DNA from: a virus
Lineage: Duplodnaviria > Caudoviricetes
Virus record (IMG/VR): IMGVR_UViG_3300030330_002046
Span: 1 to 61,117 of that record
DNA: 61,117 bases
Direction: 5' to 3' (one strand)
The notes under the pieces were generated by a model. That model did not search any database. It saw only the letters and a program-made list of their open reading frames with translations, and was not told the DNA's origin. Of the stretch, positions 1,517 to 61,117 are shown one piece after another. The position numbers and the translations under genes were made by a program. The first letter of the stretch is position 1; each line of letters starts with the position of its first letter.

Positions 1517-1521
1517 GAAAA

Positions 1522-2796: not shown

Positions 2797-2797
2797 G

Positions 2798-3885: not shown

Positions 3886-3891
3886 AACTAC

Positions 3892-3922: not shown

Positions 3923-4080
3923 ATGTTGAAATGACGAAAAGTATAGCTCTATACTCTCTATATATATTTTACTTGTATATATTTTTTTTATTCTCTATAT
4001 TTGAATAATAAAATTAACATTTTCATCAATACTACTGAGTATGAGGATGTTAAGAAAAATTAAATAACATTAAATCAACA
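3923..4080. repeat. AT-rich element homologous to 54441-54600; candidate replication origin
   Basis: Same ordered blocks in both copies: atgtt..aatgacg, (ta)n, ataaaat.aacatt, tactga, aacattaaa.caaca. Confidence 0.55.
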
Positions 4081-4082
4081 CA

Positions 4083-6470: not shown

Positions 6471-6471
6471 A

Positions 6472-7716: not shown

Positions 7717-7735
7717 TAATATAAAAACAAGATTT

Positions 7736-7894
7736 ATGAAATGTACTGAATGTTCAAAAGATTTAATATGGGGAGGAGACCACACGTACGAAGATTACGG
7801 ATTAGAGGGTAATGGAATTGTAACTAATTGCTCGTGTCCTAATGAAGACTGTGATGTGGAACAAGTATTAATTTACAAAACCATTAATGACTGA
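7736..7894 (+). CDS. Small Cys-rich (zinc-finger-like) protein, 52 aa; not in ORF track
   Basis: MKCTECSKDLIWGGDH...NCSCPNEDC; fills the gap between helicase and VRR-NUC. Confidence 0.65.
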   Translation: MKCTECSKDLIWGGDHTYEDYGLEGNGIVTNCSCPNEDCDVEQVLIYKTIND

Positions 7895-8129
7895 GCAACA
7901 GATACAAGCCAAAAGAATAAAGCAGTTAGAGGCTGATGGTTACTACGTTATAAAGCTTGTTAAGACAAACAAGAATGGTATACCTGACTTGGTAGCCTTC
8001 AAGCCTGATGCTGAAATTCTATTTAGTGAAATAAAAAAACCTAATGGAAAATTATCTAAGCTACAAGAGTATAGACTAAAAGAACTAAAAAGTTATGGAT
8101 TCAAAACAGAAGTCTACAAAGGAGATTGA
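7887..8129 (+). CDS. VRR-NUC domain nuclease
   Basis: EQQIQ...GIPDL...FSEIKKPNGKLSKLQ. Confidence 0.85.
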   Translation: MTEQQIQAKRIKQLEADGYYVIKLVKTNKNGIPDLVAFKPDAEILFSEIKKPNGKLSKLQEYRLKELKSYGFKTEVYKGD

Positions 8130-8457
8130 AACTCTAAAGTTTGACATGGAATTTTTAGAAGAGATTTCTGAATATGATGACGATGTTCAAGAGGTTGTTT
8201 TAAAAACTTTACTTGAAGAAGAAGAAGACCTACCTGAGAAAAATGGATTTACTCAAAAGGTTTACGGTGTAATACAAGGAGAAGAGCCAATGTATTACGA
8301 GGTAGAATACTTCAAGCAAGAAGAAGAGAAAGCAATATACTTAGAATTTAAAGTAGTAGATGTTGATATTTTTTTAGATGGTGTTATAAATAAAACTACA
8401 TTCAAATTAAATAAATGTAATGGAAACAAAAAAAGAAAAACAAGAAAGACTGATTAA
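8095..8457 (+). CDS. Acidic hypothetical protein
   Basis: 120-aa ORF with a strongly Glu/Asp-rich core. Confidence 0.65.
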   Translation: MDSKQKSTKEIETLKFDMEFLEEISEYDDDVQEVVLKTLLEEEEDLPEKNGFTQKVYGVIQGEEPMYYEVEYFKQEEEKAIYLEFKVVDVDIFLDGVINKTTFKLNKCNGNKKRKTRKTD

Positions 8458-8935
8458 GATTATAAATAGTGTATTTGATTTAGATATAAAAAGAAATAAA
8501 AAGTCTGAGATGTATGTGTTAGCTAGAGCATCATACTGCAAGATTTTAAGAGATTTAAATTATCAATACATGGATATAGGAAATAGAATCAATAAACATC
8601 ACGCTAGTATTATCCACTCTTACAGAAACTTTTCACACTACAAACAATTCTTTCCTTCATTCATAAATTTACATAATAAAGTGTTAGCTGAGTTTGGAAG
8701 TAGAGAGGCAAAAGAGTATATGGAATCATTAGAAAAGCTTAAAGAAGAGAATGAAGCTTTGAAATCTCGTATAAAAGAATTACATTCGCACAACGCACGT
8801 CTTTCGTATCAGCTTGAAAACAAGCATTCAAAGAATAATACTCTTCATAATATGATAGACGAAAGGGTAAGACCTAACACGTTAAAAGAAGTTGAAATTA
8901 AATTAAATAGATTATTAAATGGAGTAGGCTCATAA
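8420..8935 (+). CDS. DnaA domain IV-like HTH protein with coiled coil
   Basis: YVLARASYCKILR...YMDIGNRINKHHASIIHS, then heptad repeats. Confidence 0.6.
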   Translation: METKKEKQERLIKIINSVFDLDIKRNKKSEMYVLARASYCKILRDLNYQYMDIGNRINKHHASIIHSYRNFSHYKQFFPSFINLHNKVLAEFGSREAKEYMESLEKLKEENEALKSRIKELHSHNARLSYQLENKHSKNNTLHNMIDERVRPNTLKEVEIKLNRLLNGVGS

Positions 8936-8950
8936 GACTCACCGATAAAA

Positions 8951-9142
8951 ATGTCCTGTAAAAAACCAAATGATTTTCAAAGATTGAATTACATCAATAA
9001 AATGATGGACGGTTTACACGACTCTCTAAACGACATATATGAATCTTTAGTTGACAAGGAATATTCTACAACAAGAAAGAATATATCAACATTGAAATCT
9101 AAGTTAGAAGATGTGTCTAAAACAATAGAAGATGAAGTCTGA
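8951..9142 (+). CDS. Hypothetical protein
   Basis: 63-aa helical ORF in operon orientation. Confidence 0.6.
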   Translation: MSCKKPNDFQRLNYINKMMDGLHDSLNDIYESLVDKEYSTTRKNISTLKSKLEDVSKTIEDEV

Positions 9143-9524
9143 AACTCAGGTTTGTACCGGGTGCAAAAAACCAAAGCCATTAAAAGATTATTGGACTGCG
9201 GGAATTGTAAAAGGTAAAAGGTATAAAAGAAAAAGGTGTAAGGTTTGCTACAATAAAACAAAATATAACTACAAATTTAGAATGCGTAAGTGGTTTCAGG
9301 AATACAAAGAATCACTTAAATGTAGTAGATGTGGTTACTCAAAAGAAAATAATAAAGGCTTCAGCTCTCATGCTCTGCAGTTTCATCACGTAAAAGATAA
9401 AAGTTTTGAAATATCAAATGCTATATCAAGGGGTTACGCCATGAAGAGAATAATAAATGAAATAAAAAAGTGTGTCGTACTATGTGCGAGATGTCACGCT
9501 GAACATCACGATACTCGAATATGA
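9132..9524 (+). CDS. HNH endonuclease with N-terminal zinc finger
   Basis: CTGC...CKVC; CSRCG...ALQFHH...KCVVLCARCHAEHH. Confidence 0.85.
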   Translation: MKSETQVCTGCKKPKPLKDYWTAGIVKGKRYKRKRCKVCYNKTKYNYKFRMRKWFQEYKESLKCSRCGYSKENNKGFSSHALQFHHVKDKSFEISNAISRGYAMKRIINEIKKCVVLCARCHAEHHDTRI

Positions 9525-9931
9525 GGTTTGAATTACAAGAAGATTTAAAAAGAGAGACTCAAGCTATAGAAAAGTTTGTGAATATGTTTGGAGGTAGTTT
9601 TAAAAAACTTGGTCCAAATGATATTGATTATCGTGTATTTGATTCTAAAGGAGAGCTTATAGCGTATGTTGAAGTAAAGGGTAGATTAAGACCAATAAAA
9701 GAAGCGTACCCTCTTCCTGTGGCAGCAAGAAAAGTTGTGAAGCTGTGTGATAAAAGATTAAATCCGGTGATGATATGGGCTTGTGAAGATGGAATAATAT
9801 ATGGTAAAGTTCCTGAGATGGAAGGCTCTGTAAGATGGGGTGGTAGAAAGCCACGGCTACATTCAGTTAATGATGAAGAGCTTATGATATACTATGAAAA
9901 ACAAAAAGCTTTTAAGTATGTACGATATTGA
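9521..9931 (+). CDS. PD-(D/E)xK-family nuclease-like protein
   Basis: DIDY...AYVEVKGR. Confidence 0.7.
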   Translation: MRFELQEDLKRETQAIEKFVNMFGGSFKKLGPNDIDYRVFDSKGELIAYVEVKGRLRPIKEAYPLPVAARKVVKLCDKRLNPVMIWACEDGIIYGKVPEMEGSVRWGGRKPRLHSVNDEELMIYYEKQKAFKYVRY

Positions 9932-10013
9932 AGATGAGCCTAACATAAAAGAATTTATTATTGTCTTTATTATAAACTTTATTATAATCTATGGATTGTA
10001 TAAAATATTTTAG

Positions 10014-13300: not shown

Positions 13301-16300
13301 TCAGCTTGAATAGTTGATAATCCTAATCTGCGTTTTGTCTCACCCTTAAGAGTATATGTTTCAGCCTCAGCTTTATACTCAGGCTGTTTCTCTAAAAACT
13401 CAATTGTCTTATCTGTTATCTGAGCTTCAGATAGCTTGTCTTTTTTAGTGGACTTGTTCTTAGATACTAATCCATCTCTAAACTTATTAACTCTTTTGAA
13501 TAATTTCAATCCTGCTTTAGAGCCGCCTTTTATGTTTGCAAAAGACTTAGGTAAATCACCAAGACCAACGGAAAGCATTTCTTTAACATCTTTTGCTTTC
13601 ATACCTTTCTTTTGAGTAAGGTAATCAGCTATCCTTTCATCAGTAAAGTTTGCGTCTCTAGCCTCCTTTATAAATACATCAGCGTCAAATTCTTTTTTAA
13701 CCTTTTTAACTTTAGGAGCCTCAGTAATTATTTCATTTATAAGTTTGCTGTTAACACCTTTCTCTTTTAGTATTTCTCTTATACCAACCTCTGAGTATCC
13801 TGCGTTTCTTAAGTTTGTAACAACTTTTTCTACAACTTGCTTATTAGATTTACTTGCTTTTTTGAAGGCAACATCAGCCTTCATAGCTGCACGTTCTTTA
13901 GGTGTAAGCTTTATTGGTTTACCACCAAGTATATCTCTGAGTGCTGTACCTAAGAATTGGTCAAGAGTTAAATCTTGAATTTCCTTGTTTGTTAAGTCCT
14001 TGAATTGTTTGAACTGTGACTTAATGTAATCCCATAGTCCCATCAACCAATCAATCCATTTAGATTTTGTTGCTTGGTTTGTTATTGACTCACCTTTATT
14101 ACCTATGAGAATAGCCATAGCTTCTTCAACAGCTTTTACTTCATCACCATTAAATATCTCTAACTGCTCTTTATATGTGTCAGTTTCTTTAACTAATTCA
14201 GCACCTCTGTTATAAATCTTTTTACCTTTCGCACTTTGCTTTATATACTTAGTCCACACGTGACCCATCTCGTGAATGGCTGTGTTGTATAAAGCTGAAC
14301 TTGAATTGTGAACATCAGGGTTTATAAATATCTCTCCGTTAGCAGTAACACCATATATAACATCACCGTCTTTTAAATATTTCTTCACACCGTCACGCTC
14401 CATCACACTATTAAAAGTCTCTGCATCAACAACCATGTTGGTCTCAGGGAATGAGCGTTGTAAGAAGTCTATAAATCTACTGTCCGGGTTTACACCTATA
14501 GGTGTGCCAAGAAATTCTTTATTAACTAATCCTGCTTGAACAGGTATAGTTTGAACTAATCTTGCTGCATCACTTCTTGACCCTCTCTCACCGGTAATCT
14601 CTTCTGCAATACCTAAAGCCACATTATTGTATGCTGAAGGAATTAAGTCAACTATTGATATAGGTTGTTTTAATATACCAAGTACTTGTCCTTTTGGTCC
14701 AAAAGGGTAGTTAGGATGGTTTGTTCTAATTGTCTGAGGGTTTTTAACGTCAATAGATGTAACCATAAACGCACTTCTTTGAGGTACGTTTGCGAGCTCA
14801 GGCTCTGTTATTACATCTGCAATCTTTTTAATGTTAAACTTATTTATATCTTGCTGAGAAGGGTTGTCACCATACAATGCTTTCAATACAGGCTTTTTAC
14901 TTTTACCCGGCTGCTTCTTTAATACATTAAAATTACCTGTTGTTATAAGGTTTGTTATCTGAGCTACCGATGTTATACCTTTTAGTGACTGTAAGCTTTC
15001 AGTAGATAATATATCCTCAATAGATTTAGCTTTTGATTGCTTAATCATATCTTGAACATCCTGTATTTCTCCAATAAATTTAGAGTAGTTTTTAATAGTA
15101 AGACCTGATGCTTTTTTACCACGCATCGTAAGACCTGTATCAACTACTTTTTTATACTTATCCTTAAGATTTGATAGCTCTTCATTTAAAGCTTTTAGAG
15201 CGGCTATTTTATTTTTAGCAGGGAATGATGCCAAGTTGTCCTTAATAACTCTTATTAAAGCTTCATTACTCTTCATACTATCATTACCCATCTTAACAAT
15301 AACCATAGGAATATGACCGTCAGGTAAAACACCTTCAGCCCAAAGCTTGTCGAATTTAGGTTTATTGTTTTCGTATATCTTTATAGCTGAGTTTTTTTGG
15401 TTGTTAACTTTATCTTGAGTAACACTAGCCCAAGCTATATTCTCGTGACCTTTGACAGAGCTAAATCCTAAACCACCTTTTAGATTTATTATTTCATTTC
15501 CTGTAAATGGATTTGTTACCGAGTAGTTTTGGTTTACATCAGTAACATTTGGGTTGTAGTTACCCGTTGTTAATTGGTCTGATATGTTCAACATTACCGG
15601 AACATTATCAAGTGTTTTTATATCTATCTCCTTGAAGTTACCACCGGTTCTTTGATTCAAAGCCTCAATATTTATTTGAGAAGGCGTAGCTTCAGTCTCC
15701 TTAATCTCACTTACATTTATAAAGTTGTCAGCTCTTTCATTTAATGTTTCTAATATCTGAGCTTCCTTAGCATCTGTTTCTGTATTTTGAGATTCAGTAA
15801 GAGTAGTAAGAGGTTTTCTTCTAAACTCAGGAACTGATTTTTTAGCTTGTTTAATATCTGACTTCATCTCAGATTTAGCAACCCTTATATCATCCTTGTA
15901 TGTGCCAATAATATCTTTTTGTTCTTGCTTAAAATCTTCAAGCTCAGCTTTCAACTCTTCTATAGACTCAAGCTTATCATCTTTTGATAGGCTCTTATCC
16001 TTTCTTACATCAGCAATTTTAGCTTTTATTTCAGCTATACCTTCTTTGGTATTACTTTCCTCTACAGTAATTTCTTCCTGCAGTTCTTCAATCTTACCAT
16101 TATAAAACTCTTCAATTTTTTCTATATTAGATTGAACTGATTCAGGAGCTTTTTCCGTTGTAGTTATTTCATCAAGCTCTGATAAATCTATATTCTCATC
16201 TGCTTTAATTGCATCTACCTCTGTTTTTACTTCAGGTGATAACTCTTCTACATCATCTGTTGTTATTTGCTCATCAATAGAAGCTAAGTCAGTCGTTGGT

Positions 16301-52152: not shown

Positions 52153-52809
52153 TTAGTATCCTGTTAAAAGTTTTAATACATCGTCTATAGCTTTGTTTCT
52201 ATGGTTGTCTTCTAGTATAACTTTAAACACATAGTCGCTACCTTTTATTTTATGAACATCGTCAATGGCTGAGTTAAGCTCTGTAGATAAATCAATCTGC
52301 TGATTGTCTCCACAGAATATCATTATAGAGTCTTTACCTAACCTACCTAAAGCCATTCTTAGCTGTGCCTTAGTTAAGTTTTGAAACTCATCTACTATAA
52401 CTACAGCACCGTCAAATGTTCTGCCTCGAAAGTGGGCAAGAGAGACTAGCTCAATTTCCTCTTGCTCCACCATCTTGGCTATCTTATCAGGTTTGTTGTA
52501 TACCTTACGCATATTAGACATGATAGGTACAAGCCAAGGTTCTAGTTTTTCTTTTTCAGTACCGGGCAGAAACCCATTATCTTCAGTCGCAACAGTTGGT
52601 CTTGTAATAATTATCTTGTTATACTGCCTTTTAAAGAACATATCTAAAGCCACTTGAACAGCAAGCAATGTTTTACCTGACCCTGCCTTACCTACAACAA
52701 AGCTATATGGATGCTTTATCATTTGCTCCTTAGCTCTTTTTTGTTCCTCAGACAAGGATATGTTAAACTTCACACTACCCTTTGGTGGCTTCTTAGATTT
52801 ATTTTCCAT
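52153..52809 (-). CDS. phoH: PhoH-family ATPase
   Basis: GKAGSGKT, IIITRP, GFLPG, FRGRTF, VDEFQN, GDNQQID. Confidence 0.92.
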   Translation of the reverse strand: MENKSKKPPKGSVKFNISLSEEQKRAKEQMIKHPYSFVVGKAGSGKTLLAVQVALDMFFKRQYNKIIITRPTVATEDNGFLPGTEKEKLEPWLVPIMSNMRKVYNKPDKIAKMVEQEEIELVSLAHFRGRTFDGAVVIVDEFQNLTKAQLRMALGRLGKDSIMIFCGDNQQIDLSTELNSAIDDVHKIKGSDYVFKVILEDNHRNKAIDDVLKLLTGY

Positions 52810-54388
52810 TACTTCTCATCATGGTAATAATAGCATTAGTGCTAAGTAGTGTAACAGCAACTGACACAGCATTTTGAAGAGCGTTCTTAGTAACTTTCAT
52901 TGGGTCAATAATACCCATCTTCATCATATTACCATACTTATCATTTTTTACATCATAACCCCAACCCTTTGAAAAGTCATCAGAGTATATTGAGTTGTAA
53001 TTTAATCCTGCATTTTCAAGTATTGTTACAATAGGTGATAGTAAAGATACTTTAAGTATCTCATATGCACACTTCTTCTCATCAGACCAATTATCTTTTA
53101 CAACTAATTTACGTGATATGTTTTCAAGAGCTACTCCTCCTCCCGGAAGTATACCCTCAACAGTAGCAGAACGAACAGCACATACAGCATCATCAATACG
53201 GTCATACAGTTCTTTTTGCTCTAGGTCAGTTTTACCTCCTGCATATATAACACCTACACCTCCTGTCAAAGAAGCTATACGTGATAGTATAAACTCACGG
53301 TCAGCTTTTTTATCAGTTATATCATGTGCATCACGAAGCTCAGATACTCGCTTATCAATATCATCTTTAGATACTACACTCTCATCTTTAATAATAATAG
53401 ATGAATCTTTACCTACTATAATTTTTTTAGCCTTACCTAAATCTTTAGGTAGTATCAGACTAAGGTCGTCACCTGTCTTTTCAGAAAAATATGTAGCACC
53501 AACAGATAGTGCAATATCATTCATCAACTCATGTTGCTTGTAACCAAAACTCGGTGGTGATATAACACATATCTTCAAACCGTTCTTCATAACATTAGCA
53601 GCAAGAGTGTTTAACACGTTAGAAGATGCGTTAGCTATAATCAATAACTTTTCACCCTTATTAATAATTGGTTTTAAAACATTCTCAATCTGTAATACAT
53701 TTGTTATCTCAGCATCACTAACAAGAATATTTACATCCTCATAAATACACTCGTCCTTTTTGTGATTATTAATAAATAAATTACTAGAATAACCACGGTC
53801 AACCTTAATACCGTTAGTAACCTCAAAATATGTTTCAGAAGACTGAGAGTTCTCAACCGTAACTATTCCATCTGTACCAACTGAATTATATACTTTAGAT
53901 ATTATATTACCTATATAGGAATCATTGTTGGCAGAAATAGTAGCAACATCCTCAAGTTTATTATTATCAACAGGCTTACTCATCTTCTTAAGATTTTCCA
54001 CTACAACCTTTGTAGCTTCAACTAGCTCTCTAAGAACTAATGTCTTATTCATACCCGACTTTATCATCTCATTACCCGCAAGAGATAAAGCTTGCGATAA
54101 CACGATTGCAGTAGTAGTACCATCACCGGCATTAGTCGCTGTCTTTTCCGAAGCTTCCTTTACAATACGTACTGCAAGATTTTCCACAGAGTCAAGCAAG
54201 CTAATAGACTTAGCAACTGTAACACCATCTTTAGTAACGGTGATTCCATGAGTATGATTTTCTGATTCAATTAGCACTGTGTTACCTCTAGGACCGAGAG
54301 TGCTCTTTACTGCGTTAGTAATTTTTTCTAATCCGCTGAAAAGTTTTTTTCTACCCTCATCAGCAAAGTGTAATTCTTTTGGATTCAT
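52799..54388 (-). CDS. groEL: Chaperonin GroEL-like
   Basis: TLGPRG, TKDGVTVAK, AGDGTTTA, ILPGGG, GIIDPMKV. Confidence 0.95.
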   Translation of the reverse strand: MNPKELHFADEGRKKLFSGLEKITNAVKSTLGPRGNTVLIESENHTHGITVTKDGVTVAKSISLLDSVENLAVRIVKEASEKTATNAGDGTTTAIVLSQALSLAGNEMIKSGMNKTLVLRELVEATKVVVENLKKMSKPVDNNKLEDVATISANNDSYIGNIISKVYNSVGTDGIVTVENSQSSETYFEVTNGIKVDRGYSSNLFINNHKKDECIYEDVNILVSDAEITNVLQIENVLKPIINKGEKLLIIANASSNVLNTLAANVMKNGLKICVISPPSFGYKQHELMNDIALSVGATYFSEKTGDDLSLILPKDLGKAKKIIVGKDSSIIIKDESVVSKDDIDKRVSELRDAHDITDKKADREFILSRIASLTGGVGVIYAGGKTDLEQKELYDRIDDAVCAVRSATVEGILPGGGVALENISRKLVVKDNWSDEKKCAYEILKVSLLSPIVTILENAGLNYNSIYSDDFSKGWGYDVKNDKYGNMMKMGIIDPMKVTKNALQNAVSVAVTLLSTNAIITMMRSNGK

Positions 54389-54410
54389 TGTATATTAAAT
54401 TTGATTTACG

Positions 54411-54418
54411 CAAAGATA
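54411..54418 (-). promoter_or_regulatory. TAnnTTTG promoter for groEL-phoH-groES
   Basis: TATCTTTG upstream of ATG 54388. Confidence 0.65.
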
Positions 54419-54440
54419 GTATATTTTATTTTATTCCAAA

Positions 54441-54600
54441 ATGTTAGAATGACGCTTTTTTCCTCTCCTACTATATATATATATATTATCCCTTTATATA
54501 TTTTTTTATTTACTCTAAAATAGAAATAAAATCAACATTATTAACATTAGTACTGATAATCAATTAGTTAGACTAAAAAAAACAACATTAAAACAACATA
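54441..54600. repeat. Second copy of the AT-rich origin-like element (see 3923-4080)
   Basis: Same ordered blocks, same orientation. Confidence 0.55.
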
Positions 54601-54628
54601 GTATATGTCAATAATAAACATATAAAAC

Positions 54629-54656
54629 AAAAAAAGAGGGATTAACCCTCTTCTTT
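54629..54656 (-). terminator. Intrinsic terminator, possibly bidirectional
   Basis: aagaggg-attaa-ccctctt flanked by A-rich and T-rich runs. Confidence 0.6.
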
Positions 54657-54703
54657 GAAGTGAACGTCACTACCCATTCACTCCTCATCAAACACAATGA
54701 ACC

Positions 54704-54856
54704 TTAAATATCGTCAATGTAATTTTTATAATGCACACTAATAAGTCCTAAGTATAAAATAAACTCAGAGTAATTATACTGCTCATCAGAACTAAAATAA
54801 GCAAAGCCTAAACAAAAACCTATCTTAATTCTATTTTGTATTTCTATTTCATACAC
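54704..54856 (-). CDS. Small hypothetical protein (50 aa, GTG start; not in ORF track)
   Basis: MYEIEIQNRIKIGFCLGFAYFSSDEQYNYSEFILYLGLISVHYKNYIDDI; followed by a terminator. Confidence 0.45.
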   Translation of the reverse strand: MYEIEIQNRIKIGFCLGFAYFSSDEQYNYSEFILYLGLISVHYKNYIDDI

Positions 54857-55310
54857 GGGGTAAAGGTATAAAAAAAATTAGATATATAGAACTAAAAGGT
54901 TATGTGTTGCGTGCAGCGTGCCGGTCGCCCTCAGAAAACCGATTTTGTGCTGAGGGGTGGGGGTTCGTTTTCGCTCGGTGCAATCGGATTTTTTGCCGTT
55001 TTACTGCCGTAAGTCTACAAGCCTTGCAGTACGTTTGGTGCAGTGTTTCGCATTCACGTTTGTAAGGCTCATATTAACCATGATTAACTGCTTTGTCCGT
55101 TCAAACGGACTGCATTCCCTTGTAAACAAAGGCTCTCAGAGATTCGAGATGCAGAGAGAGGATGCACAGCCCCTCCCCGACCATCACCACACCAAACTTT
55201 TCTTGGGGATTTGTCCCGTCTACATCTCAAGTATATACTGAGATTAGACAAAAGATGTAAAAAAAATGAAAATAAATGCGTTTAGCTATTGTATTGTACT
55301 AGAATTAAAC

Positions 55311-55318
55311 TATATTTG
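55311..55318 (+). promoter_or_regulatory. Early-operon promoter
   Basis: TATATTTG with TTG at the -33 position; degenerate palindrome gtccgagaaacgtac just downstream. Confidence 0.7.
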
Positions 55319-55380
55319 TAAAGTGAGTCCGAGAAACGTACTCCGATAATTTAACTTAAATAACTAAAAATCAAGTAATT

Positions 55381-55995
55381 ATGAGACAAATTAATCCAAT
55401 TTTCGAAGAATTGTTAGGAAACAATTGTAATGAGTTCAATGGTGCATTGACGTTAGTAACTGAGTTACAAGACTCAGAGAAGAAGACGTTTGATAAGCAA
55501 ATCAAATTGGCTCACAAGATTTACAAAACATTCGAGTATTTCAAATCAGCCGAATGTAAGCAACAGATGGATTACATTGGTGTAGTGATGACTACCGAAG
55601 AATTCCACAAGCAAATATTCGGATACAACAAATCATTCTTTTACGACATGGTTAAAGTTGGTAAGCTACGTGATGAGTCTAATGACACTATCACTAAGTA
55701 CAAGCGAGAATGTACGAAGTTAGAAAACCAAAACGATAAGACTGCTTCGAGAAGCATCAAGAATCTACTCAAGTACGCTAAGGCAGTTGAGACTGATGGC
55801 GATGATGCTGAGGTTGAATCTACATCTACTACTCTGATGACGTTCGCTATCAAAGGCGATATATTCGATGATGGCAAAGGCGTTTCTATGCGTTTGACTG
55901 CTGACGGACAGATTCATATCAGTGGCGATGAGGATAAGATTCCTCCAATGGTTACTGCATCGTTTAATGAGATGAGAACATCACTAAATTCATAG
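55381..55995 (+). CDS. Hypothetical early protein
   Basis: 204-aa first gene of the + arm. Confidence 0.8.
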   Translation: MRQINPIFEELLGNNCNEFNGALTLVTELQDSEKKTFDKQIKLAHKIYKTFEYFKSAECKQQMDYIGVVMTTEEFHKQIFGYNKSFFYDMVKVGKLRDESNDTITKYKRECTKLENQNDKTASRSIKNLLKYAKAVETDGDDAEVESTSTTLMTFAIKGDIFDDGKGVSMRLTADGQIHISGDEDKIPPMVTASFNEMRTSLNS

Positions 55996-56062
55996 GTTAA
56001 CTGACGAGTCTTCAATAGACGAAACTTGAGTCCGTTTAAACGGACGGACTTGAGTCTTAACC
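55995..56062 (+). ncRNA. Type I hammerhead ribozyme HHR1 (cleavage after C56056)
   Basis: GGTTAA CTGACGA GTCT-tcaat-AGAC GAAA CTTGAGTCC...GGACTTGAG TC TTAACC. Confidence 0.93.
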
Positions 56063-56080
56063 AATAAAAAACAAATAGTT

Positions 56081-56263
56081 ATGACAATTACAATTCAAAA
56101 CGCAAACGGAATCAAATTATGCTCATTCGATGTATGTGCTGAGTACGGATACGAGCAATTCATCCTTGACAATTCTCTTCAGGGTTGTAAGGTAATCAAT
56201 GGAAATCATGAGATTGACATGATATACCCAAATTCAGATGAAATTATAATACAATTAGCTTAA
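56081..56263 (+). CDS. Small hypothetical protein
   Basis: 60 aa; ATG 24 nt after the HHR1 cut site. Confidence 0.65.
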   Translation: MTITIQNANGIKLCSFDVCAEYGYEQFILDNSLQGCKVINGNHEIDMIYPNSDEIIIQLA

Positions 56264-56309
56264 TAAATTAACCATGTCCGTTTAAACGGACTACAAAAAC
56301 CAAATAGTT

Positions 56310-57272
56310 ATGATACAAGGAATTAATTATGCCGTTGAGAACAACCCTAACAGAGGGAGAATGTTACAATACCATGAGGCGAGTAGAATCGGTCTACCAT
56401 TCAGAAAGCTAAACCATACAACACATGAGCGTGATTTGACTCATTTACCGAGAAATACACGTGATTTGACTACCTTTACTAATGATGATGGTGCATTTCA
56501 GTCAAAGTTTGCGATAGGCTTTGAGATTGAGAAGAATAGCTTTCATCGTGGAGCAGTCAAAGAATATCCATTATTCAGTCATTTCGAGTACGATTCATCA
56601 TGTGGAGTTGAAGCAGTGACTAACTTGCTACCATTAGTGGACAAGTCAGTTTGGCGTAACAAGGTGCTTGGTATGTTCTCTGAAGCAAGTAAGATTATTG
56701 AAGATAGATACTCACCATCAAATCAAAGATGTGGAGGTCACATTACTCTTTCTTGTGTGGGTATGAGTGGACAAGACTTGGCTGATAAGCTAAGACCATA
56801 TGCAGGTATTATCTACGCTCTATGGCGATTCAGATTACGCAATTCATATTGCTATGGGAACTTGATGATGAATACAAGTGATTATCATCGTGATTGGGTT
56901 GGACATACGTCAAGCAGTAAGTATCACGTATGTAAGATTATGGACGATAGAATTGAGTTCCGTCTACCTAACCGAGTGGAGTCAGTTAGAAGCATTAATC
57001 TTCGCTATAGGCTTATGTATGAGTTGATGAATTACGCTATCAACAAGCCAAACGGCACGTACGCAGGATTCATCAAGAAGATTAAATCTATACTCTTGTA
57101 TATGTACGATGGCAATGAAGCTAAAGTTGATGAGATTGTTACTCTATCAAAGGCATTCAGAAAGATGCTGATGAGTGGTAAGATTAACGCTGAGGTTGTG
57201 CAGTGGGTTGACCAATACAATAGGCTTACATCACACTACACTACGAGCTTACGCAGAGCTACTGAGAGATGA
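56310..57272 (+). CDS. Putative amidoligase (glutamine-synthetase-fold COOH-NH2 ligase, Amidoligase_2-like)
   Basis: IGFEIE, DSS...VEAVT, CGGHI, RIEFR in the expected order. Confidence 0.7.
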   Translation: MIQGINYAVENNPNRGRMLQYHEASRIGLPFRKLNHTTHERDLTHLPRNTRDLTTFTNDDGAFQSKFAIGFEIEKNSFHRGAVKEYPLFSHFEYDSSCGVEAVTNLLPLVDKSVWRNKVLGMFSEASKIIEDRYSPSNQRCGGHITLSCVGMSGQDLADKLRPYAGIIYALWRFRLRNSYCYGNLMMNTSDYHRDWVGHTSSSKYHVCKIMDDRIEFRLPNRVESVRSINLRYRLMYELMNYAINKPNGTYAGFIKKIKSILLYMYDGNEAKVDEIVTLSKAFRKMLMSGKINAEVVQWVDQYNRLTSHYTTSLRRATER

Positions 57273-57277
57273 TTTAT

Positions 57278-57305
57278 GGGTGTCCGTTCAAACGGACGGA
57301 TGCCC
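57278..57305 (+). other. Palindrome-containing hairpin just upstream of HHR2
   Basis: gggtgtcc-gttcaaacggac-ggatgccc. Confidence 0.75.
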
Positions 57306-57309
57306 TCTC

Positions 57310-57360
57310 TCCGTCCACAAGTGAGTGCTTGTGCTGATGAGACCAAAAGGTCGAAACGGA
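57310..57360 (+). ncRNA. Type III hammerhead ribozyme HHR2 (cleavage after C57315)
   Basis: TCCG TC CACAAGT-gagt-GCTTGTG CTGATGA GACC-aaaa-GGTC GAAA CGGA. Confidence 0.93.
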
Positions 57361-57379
57361 AACTTAAAACCAAATTATT

Positions 57380-57529
57380 ATGAAAAAGTTTAATTATTGG
57401 GCAGTCTTTGTATTGCTATTAGCAAGTGCGATAGGTACGATTTACGCTTTCGCAGTGAGTGGAAGTCTTGTATGGATATTATTAATATTCAGCAGTATTT
57501 ACGCAATTAATTTACACTTAAACCAATAG
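57380..57529 (+). CDS. Small membrane protein (49 aa; not in ORF track)
   Basis: MKKFNYWAVFVLLLASAIGTIYAFAVSGSLVWILLIFSSIYAINLHLNQ; typical aaattattATG leader. Confidence 0.6.
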   Translation: MKKFNYWAVFVLLLASAIGTIYAFAVSGSLVWILLIFSSIYAINLHLNQ

Positions 57530-57534
57530 AAACT

Positions 57535-57672
57535 ATGGAAGCAAAAGCAATAGTAATCGAGGGTAAGTTGGTAAGGATTGATGCCTGTGGAAATTTCTAC
57601 AGGCTCAATGGACTTGGCAAGTGGACTCAGATAAAACCAATGGAATTGTATGAGTTGATAACGCAAGGTTAA
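57535..57672 (+). CDS. Small protein (45 aa; not in ORF track)
   Basis: MEAKAIVIEGKLVRIDACGNFYRLNGLGKWTQIKPMELYELITQG; stop TAA lies in HHR3 stem I. Confidence 0.6.
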   Translation: MEAKAIVIEGKLVRIDACGNFYRLNGLGKWTQIKPMELYELITQG

Positions 57673-57730
57673 CTGATGAGAGTTTATTACTCGAAACATT
57701 AGTCCGTTCAGACGGACTGATGTCTTAATC
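57667..57730 (+). ncRNA. Type I hammerhead ribozyme HHR3 (cleavage after C57724)
   Basis: GGTTAA CTGATGA GAGT-ttatt-ACTC GAAA CATTAGTCCGTT-ca-GACGGACTGATG TC TTAATC. Confidence 0.93.
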
Positions 57731-57743
57731 AAAATTTAATATT

Positions 57744-57941
57744 ATGGAAACAATACAACAAGAGTACCTAAAGAAATTAGTAAACGCTACAGAGACTTAC
57801 ATAAAGAAGTTGGAAGAAGTTCAAGATGACGCACACTTTTATCAGGTAAAGGTAGAGGGTAGACATATCGTTCTTGACATCGCAGACGTAGTTGTTCACC
57901 TACACATGAAGTTAAAGAAGTATAAGGATTTGGTAGATTAA
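57744..57941 (+). CDS. Small hypothetical protein
   Basis: 65 aa; ATG 19 nt after the HHR3 cut site. Confidence 0.7.
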   Translation: METIQQEYLKKLVNATETYIKKLEEVQDDAHFYQVKVEGRHIVLDIADVVVHLHMKLKKYKDLVD

Positions 57942-57960
57942 AATATTATTCTTATCTTTG
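57929..57960 (+). promoter_or_regulatory. Internal Bacteroidota-type promoter
   Basis: TTTG at 57929-57932 and TATCTTTG at 57953-57960. Confidence 0.65.
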
Positions 57961-57992
57961 TCTAAATTTAGTTCAATTAAAACAAAAAAGCT

Positions 57993-58271
57993 ATGCTACA
58001 TTTAAGAGGTCAGTACAGACTGACAAACAAGAAGTACAAAATCAACAAGAAGTTTGATATTACTATCGGTTATGCATCTCCGAACAGAATAACAAAGTCT
58101 TTCGTTAACAGATGCAAGGAGGGAATGGCTGATGACATTGGTCAAGAGATTACTGAATGGTTACTTGATAACTTTTGGGTTAAAGAGTACGAGGAGATAA
58201 GAGAGTTAAGTAAATGCTCTCCTGATGTTGATGACATTAAAATAACAGTTCATGCAAATAAAATCAAATAA
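57993..58271 (+). CDS. Hypothetical protein
   Basis: 92-aa ORF. Confidence 0.65.
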   Translation: MLHLRGQYRLTNKKYKINKKFDITIGYASPNRITKSFVNRCKEGMADDIGQEITEWLLDNFWVKEYEEIRELSKCSPDVDDIKITVHANKIK

Positions 58272-58290
58272 CCAATTAAATTAAATTATT

Positions 58291-58467
58291 ATGAAAGAAC
58301 AAATCTATATGTTAGTTGAATTCAACGGAGAAAATGTACTCCCAAGATTTAGTGTAAGAGAAACTTTTAAAACTTTTGAAGAAGCGAAAGACAAGCTAAA
58401 TATGTTAAACCAAGAAGCTAAAGAAAATGGTTGGACACGAAATTATATTTTAACTAAATCATTATAA
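58291..58467 (+). CDS. Small protein (58 aa; not in ORF track)
   Basis: MKEQIYMLVEFNGENVLPRFSVRETFKTFEEAK...; shared leader taaccaattaaattaaattattATG. Confidence 0.65.
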   Translation: MKEQIYMLVEFNGENVLPRFSVRETFKTFEEAKDKLNMLNQEAKENGWTRNYILTKSL

Positions 58468-58475
58468 AATCAAAT

Positions 58476-58514
58476 ACTTGTGTCCGTTCAAACGGACGGA
58501 CATAAGTTTTAACC
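58476..58514 (+). other. Hammerhead remnant (stem III and 3-prime stem I only)
   Basis: acttgtgtcc...ggacataagt-t-ttaacc; no CTGANGA or stem II upstream. Confidence 0.7.
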
Positions 58515-58537
58515 AATTAAATTAAAATCAAATAATT

Positions 58538-58849
58538 ATGAGTAAGCTAGAAAAAAGTTTTCAGAAAGTACGTTACGTAGGTTGGGAGAGTTCAATGTCT
58601 CCTACGATAGAGCGTGAGAAAAAGACAATGCAATACCATGTTGGTTGGAACAAGGAGTCTAATCGTGGTTGGTTTGAAATCTACGATGTTGAGAGTGGTG
58701 GTGAGGACTACTACGCAGAGGGTGGGCTTGAGTTCACCGGCAAGGTCTTAGATGGATACGATGGTGTGTTTTCCTTAGACGATGAGGTTATTAAGTGCGT
58801 CAAGGGTTGGGGTGCTGATACAAAGGACATGGAAGGAATATTAAGTTAG
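58538..58849 (+). CDS. Hypothetical protein
   Basis: 103 aa; stop TAG overlaps HHR4. Confidence 0.75.
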   Translation: MSKLEKSFQKVRYVGWESSMSPTIEREKKTMQYHVGWNKESNRGWFEIYDVESGGEDYYAEGGLEFTGKVLDGYDGVFSLDDEVIKCVKGWGADTKDMEGILS

Positions 58850-58912
58850 GTTAACTGATGAGGATTAAGTATCCGAAACTTGAGTCCGTTGTAACGGACT
58901 CGAGTCTTAACC
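58849..58912 (+). ncRNA. Type I hammerhead ribozyme HHR4 (cleavage after C58906)
   Basis: GGTTAA CTGATGA GGAT-taagt-ATCC GAAA CTTGAGTCCGTT-gt-AACGGACTCGAG TC TTAACC. Confidence 0.95.
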
Positions 58913-58928
58913 AATTAAATTAAATATT

Positions 58929-59090
58929 ATGGGACAAATGAAAGAATTATTTATCTCGATGCAAGAGGGACTCATGCAAGGGATAGCAATCACGAATGCT
59001 CAGCGTGAGCGTCAGTTGGATGACGAGCATCAGATGAGCGTATCAAAAAAAGTAAAATCAAAAAACAAAACCAATGAAAGCAAACAATAA
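58929..59090 (+). CDS. Small protein (53 aa; not in ORF track)
   Basis: MGQMKELFISMQEGLMQG...; ATG 22 nt after the HHR4 cut site. Confidence 0.55.
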   Translation: MGQMKELFISMQEGLMQGIAITNAQRERQLDDEHQMSVSKKVKSKNKTNESKQ

Positions 59091-59334
59091 AATCATAGCA
59101 GAGTTTATGGGCGACAAGCCTAAAGAATTATTATACACAACATTGTACATAGATTATAGTTCGTCTTGGGACTTGCTTATGCCGGTCGTCCAAAAGATAG
59201 GCGATGAATACTACAACACACCATTTGATGAGACATACTCAAAACTTACAGAGCAATACGAAAACATTTGGACATTGGAAGATACGTACAATGCAGTTGT
59301 AGAGTTTATCAAAGAGCAAAACGAGATAGGTTAA
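59074..59334 (+). CDS. Hypothetical phage protein
   Basis: NKIIAEFMG...YSSSWDLLMPVVQKI...YNAVVEFIK; stop in HHR5 stem I. Confidence 0.75.
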   Translation: MKANNKIIAEFMGDKPKELLYTTLYIDYSSSWDLLMPVVQKIGDEYYNTPFDETYSKLTEQYENIWTLEDTYNAVVEFIKEQNEIG

Positions 59335-59392
59335 CTGATGAGGACTGAGTGTCCGAAACATTAGTCCGTTACAACGGACTGATGTCTTAACC
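59329..59392 (+). ncRNA. Type I hammerhead ribozyme HHR5 (cleavage after C59386)
   Basis: GGTTAA CTGATGA GGAC-tgagt-GTCC GAAA CATTAGTCCGTT-ac-AACGGACTGATG TC TTAACC. Confidence 0.95.
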
Positions 59393-59408
59393 AATTAAAT
59401 TTAATACT

Positions 59409-59792
59409 ATGGGATATTATAGTGAAGTGTACATAGCAGTACCAAAAAAAGCTGAAGCTGAAATGGACAAGGCAATGAATAGTAATAACTTACTTACTAA
59501 GCCTCAGTTTGAAACAAGTCCATCATTTAAAAAGTATGACCACATACAAAAGTGGTCAGAGTATAAAGATAATCAGAGAATTGAAACGTCAAGAGAACTT
59601 GTAATATACGAGGGATTTTGGCTCAAGTGGTATCCTGAGTACAAAGACGTTCAAGCAGTCACAAGCGTGGTTGAAAACCACGAAGATGATGGAGCGTGTA
59701 TCGTGTGCGTAGGCGAAGATGGTGCAGTCCATTCTAACACCGGAGAGTACGATGATGTATTCAATGTTTATGTAAAAGTAGAATTAACTTAA
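59409..59792 (+). CDS. Hypothetical phage protein
   Basis: MGYYSEV...WLKWYPEYKDV...VGED; ATG 22 nt after the HHR5 cut site. Confidence 0.75.
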   Translation: MGYYSEVYIAVPKKAEAEMDKAMNSNNLLTKPQFETSPSFKKYDHIQKWSEYKDNQRIETSRELVIYEGFWLKWYPEYKDVQAVTSVVENHEDDGACIVCVGEDGAVHSNTGEYDDVFNVYVKVELT

Positions 59793-59803
59793 ATTAAAAT
59801 CAG

Positions 59804-60325
59804 ATGAGTATAATTAATAACAAAAAAGATAGCGAAGACTATATTAAAAATCATACAACAACAGAATCTAAAATTATGGAAAACAAGACAATTGAATGGG
59901 GGTGGGAAAAAAGTCAGCCCTCAAACATGAGAAGCAAAGAACATCAAGCGTTCTTAATCAAGGAGTACAACAAGAATAGACCGGAGCATCTGCAAGTTAA
60001 AGATATGGCAGAGTTGAACAGAGCCTTGTTAGATACTGAGGTTAAGTATCTTGGTATGCGTAGCGTAACTATTACAGAGCGTAGAGTATACCATAAGGTT
60101 GGTAAGGTTACCATAGAGTTGCCTAAAGACTTACCATTAGACCAAACTGATGAGTGGTTGGAGAAGAATACTCAGAAGTGGGAACAAGAGTTGGACAATC
60201 AGTTTAATACTGCTAAGCTTGAGTTTGGAACCGGTGTTTTAGAATGTGATGGTATGTCATATGAAAGTGCAGACAGAGAGACAAGATACGATGTCAACGG
60301 AGAAAGCTTCGGAGGTCACGTCTAA
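59804..60325 (+). CDS. Hypothetical protein (start uncertain)
   Basis: 173-aa ORF; second plausible ATG at 59876. Confidence 0.7.
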   Translation: MSIINNKKDSEDYIKNHTTTESKIMENKTIEWGWEKSQPSNMRSKEHQAFLIKEYNKNRPEHLQVKDMAELNRALLDTEVKYLGMRSVTITERRVYHKVGKVTIELPKDLPLDQTDEWLEKNTQKWEQELDNQFNTAKLEFGTGVLECDGMSYESADRETRYDVNGESFGGHV

Positions 60326-60341
60326 AAAAAAGTACAATAAA

Positions 60342-60374
60342 ATTTGGTAGTGTCTAAATTTTGTTGTATATTTG
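60342..60374 (+). promoter_or_regulatory. Promoter of the GATase-GGCT gene
   Basis: TTTG near 60342-60345 and TATATTTG at 60367-60374. Confidence 0.7.
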
Positions 60375-60440
60375 TACAAATCAAATACAATTAATCAGAG
60401 GTCAGTCCGTTCAGACGGACTCCTCGCAAACAAAAAACTT

Positions 60441-61117
60441 ATGTGCGTAATTATTATTAAGCAAAAGCAAAAGATGATGTCAAGAGAGATTGCAAAGACA
60501 TCAGCAAGAATCAATCCTCATGGATTGGGTATCGTGTGGTTAGATACATTCGAGGTAACCTACCACAAATCAAAAGACTACAATGTCTTATTAACAGAGC
60601 GACCATTCATTGCTCACTTTAGATATGCTACTGTAGGTGCTATCAACAAGGACAATACACACCCATTTCAGTGTGGTAAAAACAAAGATGAATGGCTAAT
60701 GATGAATGGTACAATACATGGTATGGGTAATGCTCAGATGTGTGACTCAAAAGTATTGGCTATTGCTTTAGGTCAGATGCCACGACAAACTTGGAAGAAA
60801 GAGTTGTCTAAGTATGAGTGCCGGTTTGTTGCAGTCAATACTCGGAATCGTTCGTTCCAAATATTCAACAAGCATCTTTACACATACAAGGACGGCATTT
60901 GGTATTCAAAAGCCAATGTGCTTCAAGAGAATCTTGTAGCAGTGTATGGTACACTAAAGAAAGGATACTCTAACTACAACACCTACCTACGTAATGCAAA
61001 GTATGTAGGTAGTGGAGTTACTAAGGACAAGTACCCTTTAGTTATCAAAGGTCTGCCTTACATGGTGGATAAGAAAGGTGTAGGTCACAATGTTGAGGTT
61101 GATGTGTTCAAGGTAAG
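60441..61117 (+). CDS. Class II (Ntn) glutamine amidotransferase fused to gamma-glutamylcyclotransferase; continues across the join to 516 (366 aa total); not in ORF track
   Basis: MC start, NPHGLG, IAHFRYATVG, NTHPF, MNGTI, CDS; then GGCT motif VAVYGTLKKGYSNY. Confidence 0.88.
   Translation, partial: MCVIIIKQKQKMMSREIAKTSARINPHGLGIVWLDTFEVTYHKSKDYNVLLTERPFIAHFRYATVGAINKDNTHPFQCGKNKDEWLMMNGTIHGMGNAQMCDSKVLAIALGQMPRQTWKKELSKYECRFVAVNTRNRSFQIFNKHLYTYKDGIWYSKANVLQENLVAVYGTLKKGYSNYNTYLRNAKYVGSGVTKDKYPLVIKGLPYMVDKKGVGHNVEVDVFKV

What the first reader, a model, noticed from the sequence alone, without database searches (positions are those of the whole stretch)
55995..59392. Five hammerhead ribozymes punctuate the early operon
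Seen: five intact cores (CUGANGA...GAAA...GUC) in 3.4 kb, all on the coding strand and all at gene junctions (55995, 57310, 57667, 58849, 59329). Stem II covaries fully among the type I copies (GUCU/AGAC, GAGU/ACUC, GGAU/AUCC, GGAC/GUCC) around a U-nnn-U loop, which indicates selection on structure. Type I cuts fall 24, 19, 22 and 22 nt before the next ATG and leave nearly the same leader (UUAACCAAUUAAAUU...UAUG). Established: hammerheads leave 5-prime OH and 2,3-cyclic phosphate ends, and hammerheads have been reported in phage and metagenomic DNA. Inference: the phage cuts its early polycistron into 1-3-gene units (1259, 409, 1182 and 480 nt) without host RNases, analogous to RNase III processing of T7 early mRNA.
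Basis: partly seen in the sequence, partly recalled or inferred. Interest (0 to 1): 0.95.

Follow-up and report, generated by a model that had tools for sequence, protein, structure and literature searches.

The report
Hammerhead ribozymes punctuating a phage operon
Five self-cutting hammerhead RNAs sit between the small genes of one operon of an uncultured phage that probably infects Flavobacterium-like bacteria; they most likely chop one long message into pieces, an arrangement already described for other phages whose purpose is still untested.

Summary
Five complete hammerhead cores lie at 55995-59392, all on the + strand and all between ORFs (5 found, 0.06 expected). Four are type I and one is type III.

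Rfam reports none at its curated cut-offs. My two covariance models find 66 such ribozymes in the window plus 80 related phage loci, all on the operon strand. About 99% of base-pair cells are paired, and most pairs show compensatory changes.

Both topologies cut just 3' of a strong hairpin. In the type I copies this is the genome's own reiterated palindrome, built into stem III. Type I copies start in the upstream stop codon and leave a 19-24 nt leader.

Perreault et al. 2011 (PMC3088659) described clustered hammerheads flanking prophage genes and proposed it. No RNA data were available, so cleavage is inferred.

Corrections: the units hold 2, 2, 4 and 2 ORFs, not 1-3. An internal promoter candidate exists. 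Only two of the four leaders match the quoted string.

This scan has noted similar operons in many other phages. Verdict: a new member of a known kind.

The parts
55995..56062 (+). Type I hammerhead 1. Starts on the last base of the upstream stop codon (ORF 55381-55995). Predicted cut 56056/56057, 24 nt before the ATG at 56081. Stem III holds the 16-nt palindrome plus a 4-nt extension.
   Evidence: R1 74.6 bits; Rfam Hammerhead_1 33.5 bits against gathering score 34, with stem III misaligned
57278..57305 (+). Palindrome-based hairpin that ends 4 nt before the type III ribozyme. After the cut, the upstream RNA would end 10 nt past this hairpin.
   Evidence: fold in a +-40 nt context; the same arrangement in relatives
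57310..57360 (+). Type III hammerhead. Stem III is open (5 bp), stem I is 6 bp with a 6-nt loop, and stem II is 4 bp with an AAAA loop. Predicted cut 57315/57316. The ribozyme stays on the 5' end of the downstream RNA, and the ATG at 57380 lies 64 nt after the cut.
   Evidence: R2 78.2 bits; Rfam Hammerhead_3 18 bits against gathering score 48.5
57667..57730 (+). Type I hammerhead 3. The upstream stop codon TAA lies inside the 5' strand of stem I. Predicted cut 57724/57725, 19 nt before the ATG at 57744. Stem I has one G.U pair, which is A-U in two close relatives.
   Evidence: R1 87.0 bits
58849..58912 (+). Type I hammerhead 4. Predicted cut 58906/58907, 22 nt before the ATG at 58929. Absent from the two closest relatives, together with the genes upstream of it.
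   Evidence: R1 89.8 bits
59329..59392 (+). Type I hammerhead 5. The stop codon TAA lies inside the 5' strand of stem I. Predicted cut 59386/59387, 22 nt before the ATG at 59409.
   Evidence: R1 90.2 bits; Rfam RAGATH-1-hammerhead 30.1 bits against gathering score 56.3
58476..58541 (+). Junction module without a catalytic core: palindrome hairpin plus the same leader before the ATG at 58538. It resembles the 3' half of a type I module.
   Evidence: 81.8% identity to the stem III and leader part of the first hammerhead of L021; R1 only 18.5 bits
56267..56312 (+). Second junction without a core: palindrome followed by a short A-rich leader before the ATG at 56310.
55289..55318 (+). Candidate Bacteroidota-type promoter (TTG, spacer, TAnnTTTG) upstream of the first ORF of the operon. 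The consensus is recalled, not tested.
57930..57960 (+). Candidate internal promoter of the same type, inside the 57725-58906 fragment. If it is active, not all downstream RNA starts at a ribozyme cut.

Best explanation
These are five functional cis-cleaving hammerhead ribozymes, four type I and one type III. They are built into the intercistronic junctions of one + strand operon of small genes that runs into the replication genes of a ~61-kb phage, probably of Flavobacteriia.

The operon is transcribed as a long RNA, and each ribozyme cuts itself out of continuity.

- A type I copy begins in the stop codon of the upstream gene and cuts at its own 3' end. The upstream RNA then ends in the ribozyme, whose stem III is a long, stable hairpin, with a 2',3'-cyclic phosphate. 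The downstream RNA starts with a 5'-OH and a uniform A/U-rich leader of 19-24 nt. The 6-bp A/U-rich stem I should let the products part.
- The type III copy cuts 10 nt after a separate strong hairpin and stays on the 5' end of the downstream RNA.

In both designs the selected outcome appears to be the same: a hairpin-capped 3' end upstream and a defined 5' end downstream. This would fix the stability and translation of each piece without needing a host RNase.

Shown here: the motifs, their folds, covariation, strand and junction placement, and the hairpin-then-cut rule. Inferred: transcription as one RNA, cleavage in vivo, and the effect on stability and translation.
For: Core and chance. There are 5 sense-strand cores against 0.06 expected, and none on the other strand. 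All five carry the consensus core, a G-C pair at 10.1/11.1, an A-U pair at 15.1/16.1 and a GUC cut triplet.

Fold. The three-way junction is the minimum-energy fold for 4 of 5 copies in isolation.

Family.
- Model R1 (type I) gives 20 full-length hits of 40.6-91 bits in the window plus 80 primase-linked loci (1.49 Mb, both strands), all on the + strand.
- Model R2 (type III) gives 46 hits of 49.5-78.2 bits, all on the + strand.

Covariation.
- Type I: 99.0% of 400 cells are paired, 18 of 21 pairs have changes on both sides, and structures slid by 1-3 columns pair at 40.2% or less.
- Type III, on a MAFFT alignment not fitted to the structure: 98.8% of 345 cells are paired, 11 of 15 pairs have changes on both sides, and slid structures pair at 45.3% or less.
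- Orthologue check: the G.U pair in stem I at 57667 is A-U in two relatives.

Placement.
- Type I starts -6 to 0 nt from the upstream stop in 15 of 20 cases, and the cut-to-ATG distance is 19-24 nt in 13 of 20.
- For type III the cut-to-ATG distance is 62-74 nt in 36 of 46, and the stop-to-ribozyme gap is 21-54 nt in 41 of 46.

Hairpin rule.
- The 40 nt before type III copies fold to a mean of -15.0 kcal/mol (n=46; 43 of 46 at -9.4 or lower), against -4.6 for 920 random 40-mers from the same loci.
- In the window and three relatives, type I stem III carries the genome's own reiterated palindrome.

Operon. No + strand terminator-like site lies in 54000-61117, and a promoter candidate lies at 55289-55318.

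Precedent (PMC3088659, passages read).
- Clustered prophage hammerheads cleaved in vitro at all sites in three tested arrangements.
- A halovirus hammerhead lies 13 nt before a start codon, with a mapped 5' end within 3 nt of the cut.
Against: - There is no experimental or RNA-read evidence for transcription or cleavage of this sequence.
- Rfam reports nothing at its gathering scores. The best scores are 33.5 against 34, 30.1 against 56.3 and 18 against 48.5.
- Stem I of the type I copies is weak. With 20 or 40 nt of flank on each side, the full hammerhead is the minimum-energy fold in only 5 of 10 folds. Stem III of the type I copies persists in 8 of 8.
- I found no evident loop-loop tertiary contact for the type I copies, so their rate at cellular Mg2+ is uncertain.
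- A promoter candidate at 57930-57960 could supply independent 5' ends.
- Of 43 relatives with at least 8 kb upstream of the primase gene, 18 have no hammerhead by these models. The nearest GenBank relative has none in the stretch searched. The device is therefore dispensable.
- The alignment used for the type I pair counts was fitted to the model, which leans towards the structure.
Confidence: 0.7

Rival explanations
1. Cleavage is a decay or timing switch and does not produce stable units. The ribozymes, slow or conditionally active, would cut the early message to trigger its degradation or to uncouple downstream genes. This would shut off early genes as infection proceeds. Terminating ribosomes on the upstream stop codon, which overlaps stem I, would modulate folding.
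For: Type I copies begin inside or on the stop codon, so a terminating ribosome would cover stem I and part of the core (inference). Stem I is marginal in context folds. Perreault et al. raise regulated cleavage for phage hammerheads (PMC3088659, Discussion passage).
Against: The rule of a strong hairpin immediately 5' of the cut, in both topologies, looks designed to protect the upstream 3' end. That is not what a signal to destroy the RNA would look like. The leaders left on downstream genes are uniform and look like the leaders of junctions without ribozymes.
Confidence: 0.15
2. The repeated junction module (ribozyme or hairpin plus leader) matters mainly at the DNA level. It would act as a recombination site that shuffles small gene cassettes among phages. 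The ribozymes would be passengers of that module.
For: The two closest relatives lack hammerhead 4 and the 2-3 genes before it. In L021 the break lies in the repeated leader: window 58265 joins 58913. Junctions without a core carry the same hairpin and leader. The number of hammerheads per relative ranges from 0 to 5.
Against: Compensatory changes in all three helices, with an invariant core across 66 copies, show selection on the RNA fold. DNA identity alone would not produce that pattern. All copies are on the sense strand. Cassette exchange can be a by-product of any repeated junction.
Confidence: 0.1
3. Fragments bounded by two type I copies circularise. The 5' end left by one cut can pair with the stem I strand of the ribozyme at the same fragment's 3' end. 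This would rebuild a hammerhead across the ends, allowing self-ligation or ligation by a host RNA ligase and giving circular mRNAs of 1182 and 480 nt.
For: Stem I is the same 6-bp helix in all four type I copies, with one G.U variant.
Against: The constancy of stem I has simpler causes. Its 5' strand doubles as the upstream stop codon, and its 3' strand is part of a leader that also occurs without ribozymes. Only 2 of 4 fragments qualify. Perreault et al. looked for circular or spliced products of clustered phage hammerheads and detected none (PMC3088659, passage). A 6-bp A/U-rich helix holds ends poorly.
Confidence: 0.05

Closest known systems
Clustered hammerhead ribozymes flanking genes in prophages (Perreault et al. 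2011, PLoS Comput Biol, PMC3088659)
   Same: Several hammerheads of mixed types lie close together on the sense strand, flanking single genes or short gene blocks of phage origin. The same proposed role applies: processing of long phage transcripts. Three such arrangements cleaved in vitro (passages read).
   Different: - Here there are five in 3.4 kb in a non-integrated ~61-kb phage of a Flavobacteriia-linked clade.
- A consistent hairpin-then-cut architecture is shared by type I and type III.
- Type I copies overlap the upstream stop codon.
- Stem III is built from the genome's own reiterated palindrome.
- Nothing has been tested experimentally.
- I could not see that paper's supplementary alignments, so I cannot say whether any of these sequences are already in them.
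Rfam hammerhead families RF00163 (type I), RF00008 (type III) and RF03152 (RAGATH-1 hammerhead)
   Same: The catalytic core and three-helix junction are the same. RAGATH-1 also has a short stem I and a long stem III hairpin (alignment).
   Different: All five fall below the curated cut-offs: 33.5 against 34 with stem III misaligned, 18 against 48.5, and 30.1 and 25 against 56.3. Six related loci that hold 20 of my model hits also give no hammerhead at gathering scores. The upstream hairpin of RAGATH-1 is not evident.
Halovirus HF1/HF2 hammerhead 'HHphage' (described in PMC3088659)
   Same: This hammerhead lies just upstream (13 nt) of a start codon in an early polycistronic transcript. Its mapped 5' end lies within 3 nt of the cut (passage).
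   Different: It is a single, variant-core, salt-dependent ribozyme in an archaeal virus. Here there are five consensus-core copies in a bacterial phage.
RNase III processing of the phage T7 early transcript (recalled, no call)
   Same: A polycistronic early RNA is cut at intercistronic hairpins. The hairpins are left at the 3' ends and stabilise the pieces.
   Different: In T7 the cutter is a host protein enzyme that leaves 5'-phosphate and 3'-OH ends. Here the RNA would cut itself, leaving 5'-OH and 2',3'-cyclic phosphate ends.

Membership tests
Hammerhead ribozyme (class) | Conserved core C3-U4-G5-A6-N7-G8-A9 and G12-A13-A14, an A15.1-U16.1 pair, and H17 at the cut site | tested here: met
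   5 of 5 window copies. The definition of the core follows the methods passage of PMC3088659.
Hammerhead ribozyme (class) | Three helices around the core, with pairs adjacent to the core intact (10.1-11.1, 1.1-2.1, 15.1-16.1) | tested here: met
   5 of 5 by reading. The minimum-energy fold shows all three helices in 4 of 5 copies. The 57667 copy needs a G.U pair in stem I.
Hammerhead ribozyme (class) | Helices supported by compensatory change while the core stays fixed | tested here: met
   Type I: 18 of 21 pairs, 99.0% paired. Type III: 11 of 15 pairs, 98.8% paired. Slid controls pair at 45.3% or less.
Hammerhead ribozyme (class) | Tertiary contact between stems I and II that gives fast cleavage at cellular Mg2+ | tested here: inconclusive
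   Type III: loop I (mostly UGAGUG or UGUGUG) and loop II (mostly AAAA or GAAA) stay similar while the stems covary. This suggests a contact. Type I: loop II keeps a U at both ends, but I found no partner.
Hammerhead ribozyme (class) | Site-specific self-cleavage that gives 5'-OH and 2',3'-cyclic phosphate ends | not testable with these tools
   No RNA run holding the sequence was listed. No bench assay was possible.
Rfam RF00163 / RF00008 / RF03152 | Score at or above the family's gathering threshold | tested here: not met
   0 matches at gathering scores. Best scores are 33.5/34, 18/48.5 and 30.1/56.3. I read this as a limit of the models with these long stem III hairpins.
Clustered phage hammerheads that process polycistronic RNA (Perreault 2011) | Several sense-strand hammerheads flanking genes within one transcription unit | tested here: met
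   5 in 3.4 kb, all on the + strand and between ORFs. There is no + strand terminator-like site. The single transcription unit itself is inferred.

The most novel reading that the evidence does not exclude
This phage clade has evolved a standard junction cassette. Two unrelated hammerhead topologies were recruited to cut immediately 3' of the same genome-specific hairpin. The hairpin's sequence is kept uniform within each genome because a phage factor reads it. Pieces bounded by two type I copies, which share one stem I, rebuild a hammerhead across their own ends and become circular, translatable mRNAs.
Probability: 0.07. Interest if true: 0.85.

Novelty: new member of a known kind. Interest (0 to 1): 0.45.

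Why it matters
What bacterial and phage hammerheads are for is still open. A 2019 review calls most genomic ribozymes functional orphans (PMC6765202, passages read).

This clade offers an unusually clean comparative set:
- 66 ribozymes of two topologies, all at gene junctions of one operon;
- a shared hairpin-then-cut design, which points to the RNA ends as the selected product;
- junctions in the same genome that carry the same hairpin and leader without a ribozyme, a built-in comparison.

Rfam's curated cut-offs miss all of them, so routine annotation will not show such operons.

A cultured, more distant relative also scores. Flavobacterium phage vB_FspP_elemoF_6-3D (NC_055853.1) has a type III hit at the head of its small-gene operon. 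A direct test in a phage-host pair may therefore be possible.

Tried and rejected
- Rfam at gathering scores on the whole window gave no match. I therefore built my own models.
- A blastn search of 55300-60300 against deposited phages gave no match.
- RNA evidence: no RNA holder was listed. One run of unknown kind held 0.21 of the sampled words. I did not use read laying, because contigs cannot show RNA ends.
- Other ribozyme classes at the junctions of relatives that lack hammerheads: Rfam at gathering scores on six such loci gave only one DUF805b RNA hit.
- PHROGs and Pfam on the small ORFs between the ribozymes gave no family. The cargo genes remain unknown. The 320-aa ORF that another note calls an amidoligase has no Pfam hit at E up to 1.
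- Lower R1 hits, at 31.7 bits or less (45 of 65), are partial matches to the palindrome hairpin on either strand. I do not count them as ribozymes. The hit at 7405-7461 lies inside the helicase gene and has neither a proper core nor a stem II.
- One of the 20 type I hits (L023 738-803) lacks the cut triplet and the 3' strand of stem I as aligned. It is probably a remnant.
- The type I-like hit in the cultured elemoF phage has a broken stem II.
- A split, trans-acting reading of the two junctions without a core (a lead from earlier notes) is rejected for this window. Their hairpin is closed on itself and leaves no free strand to pair with a catalytic strand (reading).
- Literature: a search for 'hammerhead', 'ribozyme' and 'Flavobacterium phage' found 0 papers. 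Searches found no paper on this clade.

Full report
**What the window is.** The window is a complete virus record of 61117 bases with a 92-base direct terminal repeat. Base skew and the ORF lists show + strand genes at 1-10000 and 54500-61117, and - strand structural genes between them. The + strand block runs from small ORFs of no known family into a primase and an SNF2-type helicase.

A T9SS sorting domain in one phage protein points to a Bacteroidota host. Of 38 deposited phages that match the primase, 21 are Flavobacterium phages, so a Flavobacteriia host is probable. 'Early operon' is an inference from gene content and layout.

**The observation.** The core pattern occurs five times. All five are on the + strand, against 0.06 expected. 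Read directly, four copies are type I: stem I is open and stems II and III are closed. They lie at 55995-56062, 57667-57730, 58849-58912 and 59329-59392. One copy is type III, at 57310-57360.

Every copy has the consensus core, a G-C pair at 10.1/11.1, an A-U pair at 15.1/16.1 and a GUC cut triplet. In isolation, four fold into the three-way junction as the minimum-energy structure. The copy at 57667 forms stems II and III only.

Three details need correction:
- The ORF list puts 2, 2, 4 and 2 ORFs in the four fragments.
- Only two of the four leaders match the quoted string.
- A Bacteroidota-type promoter candidate lies inside the third fragment, at 57930-57960 (the consensus is recalled).

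**Why Rfam is silent.** Rfam finds nothing at its gathering scores. With relaxed thresholds:
- copy 1 scores 33.5 bits against a cut-off of 34, with stem III misaligned;
- two copies score 30.1 and 25 bits against RAGATH-1 hammerhead (cut-off 56.3);
- the type III copy scores 18 bits against 48.5.

Six related loci that hold 20 of my model hits also give no hammerhead at gathering scores. I read this as a limit of the models with these long stem III hairpins.

**Relatives and covariation.** A pattern scan of IMG/VR found three close relatives with 4, 4 and 2 hammerheads. The primase protein found 249 related stretches. The best 80, at 73-100% identity, were kept with up to 10 kb upstream.

| Model | Built from | Strong hits in window + 80 loci (1.49 Mb, both strands) | Strand |
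|---|---|---|---|
| R1 (type I) | 9 sequences | 20 full-length, 40.6-91 bits | all + |
| R2 (type III) | 25 sequences aligned by MAFFT | 46, 49.5-78.2 bits | all + |

The other 45 R1 hits, at 31.7 bits or less, are partial matches to the palindrome hairpin.

Pair counts:
- Type I: 99.0% of 400 cells are paired, and 18 of 21 pairs have changes on both sides. Structures slid by 1-3 columns pair at 19.6-40.2%. That alignment was fitted to the model, which favours the structure.
- Type III, on the unfitted MAFFT alignment: 98.8% of 345 cells are paired, and 11 of 15 pairs have changes on both sides. Slid structures pair at 29.1-45.3%.
- The G.U pair in stem I of the 57667 copy is A-U in two close relatives.

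These results show selection on the hammerhead fold.

**Anatomy of the junctions.**

*Type I.* These copies start -6 to 0 nt from the upstream stop in 15 of 20 cases. In the window, two stop codons end on the first base of stem I and two lie inside it. The cut falls 19-24 nt before the next ATG in 13 of 20.

*Type III.* These copies sit 21-54 nt after the upstream stop in 41 of 46 cases. Their cut is 62-74 nt before the next ATG in 36 of 46. The ORF calls used ATG starts and a 30-aa minimum, so some misses are artefacts.

*Hairpin before type III.* The gap before type III copies is filled by a strong hairpin. The 40 nt upstream fold to a mean of -15.0 kcal/mol (43 of 46 at -9.4 or lower), against -4.6 for 920 random 40-mers.

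*Hairpin in type I.* In the window's type I copies the equivalent hairpin is stem III itself. It contains a 16-nt palindrome that occurs 16 times in the genome, counting one copy with a single mismatch. That count includes three terminators with T-runs and two junctions without a ribozyme.

*Genome-specific hairpins.* Relatives have their own reiterated hairpin, with a different arm sequence in different lineages and many copies per genome. In the window and three relatives (L022, L023, L062), type I stem III uses the genome's own version.

Both topologies therefore cut within a few nucleotides 3' of a strong hairpin. It suggests that the product ends are what selection acts on.

**Mechanism proposed.** A host-type promoter candidate lies at 55289-55318, and there is no + strand terminator-like site up to the end of the window. 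One long RNA is therefore likely.

Each ribozyme would cut during or after transcription. The upstream piece keeps a hairpin-capped end with a cyclic phosphate. The downstream piece starts with a 5'-OH. After a type I cut it carries a short uniform leader. After the type III cut it carries the folded ribozyme.

The chemistry of the ends is established knowledge for hammerheads. The effects on stability and translation are inference. Similar leaders also precede genes without ribozymes, so the leader has a role of its own.

**Evidence against, and limits.**
- No RNA data exist for this sequence.
- Stem I is weak. With 20 or 40 nt of flank, the complete hammerhead is the minimum-energy fold in 5 of 10 folds, though type I stem III holds in 8 of 8.
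- I found no tertiary contact for the type I copies.
- The device is dispensable. Of 43 relatives with at least 8 kb upstream, 25 have at least one hammerhead and 18 have none. Counts per locus run from 0 to 5, and some hits lie close to the 10-kb limit, so counts are lower bounds.
- The nearest GenBank relative (77.7% primase identity) has none in the 20.8 kb searched.

**Cassettes.** The two closest relatives lack hammerhead 4 together with the two or three genes before it. In L021 the join falls in the repeated leader. The repeated junction thus also marks points of gene gain and loss. This fits a DNA-level side effect and does not explain the covariation.

**Comparison with what is known.** Perreault et al. 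2011 (PMC3088659; passages read) reported the following:
- Multiple hammerheads flank genes or short gene blocks in prophages.
- This implies processing of long phage transcripts.
- Three such arrangements cleaved in vitro.
- Circular or spliced products were sought and not detected.
- A halovirus hammerhead lies 13 nt before a start codon.

A 2019 review (PMC6765202; passages read) still lists the function as unproven. My searches found no paper on this clade. Supplements were closed.

This scan has already noted similar ribozyme-punctuated phage operons in many genomes. The finding is therefore a well-supported new member of a known kind, with a clear architectural rule and a possible cultured test system.

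Noticed in passing
relatives: for example L051:3777-3827, L059:5688-5738, L062:3849-3899, L097:1938-1988: 15 of 46 type III hammerheads in relatives have A.A (8) or U.U (7) in place of the G-C pair at 10.1/11.1. All other helices pair. 6 of the 7 U.U copies cut after GUA. Two more copies have an extra U after A9, one has G.U, and one (L064:3467) has C in place of U4. The 2011 screen rejected hits with a mispair at 10.1/11.1, so such variants may be under-reported. I did not test whether they are active or whether the link to the cut-site base only reflects lineage.
   Followed up: partly
window 719-60420 (16 sites); L021-L097: One 16-nt palindrome occurs 16 times in the window, one copy with a single mismatch. 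It appears in ribozyme stems, in three terminators, in leaders and inside two coding regions. Relatives carry a different reiterated hairpin per lineage, with up to 13 copies in 22 kb. Uniformity within a genome and difference between genomes suggest a co-evolving reader or gene conversion.
   Followed up: partly
L101 (NC_055853.1) 16030-16137: The annotated + strand 'gp66' of Flavobacterium phage elemoF overlaps a - strand type I hammerhead-like element at 16045-16102 (40.4 bits), which lies between two - strand genes. The small ORF may be spurious. The element's stem II is broken.
   Followed up: partly
window 60441-61115 continuing at 93-516: An ORF that runs across the assembly join carries GATase class II and gamma-glutamyl cyclotransferase-like (GGACT) domains. 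The nearest GenBank relative annotates a gamma-glutamyl cyclotransferase at the matching place.
   Followed up: no
window 57290-57316: With the upstream hairpin truncated, its 3' arm pairs with the stem III strand and cut site of the type III ribozyme (+-20 nt fold). With the whole hairpin present, the ribozyme folds. This could act as a folding switch or could be incidental.
   Followed up: no
L029:5317-5349: A DUF805b RNA (RF02914, 39.8 bits, above its gathering score) lies in the same operon region of a relative that has no hammerheads.
   Followed up: no
window 52799-54388 (-): The phage encodes a GroEL-type chaperonin (Cpn60_TCP1, E 2.6e-59). The relatives MW202828.1 and elemoF do so too.
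   Followed up: no
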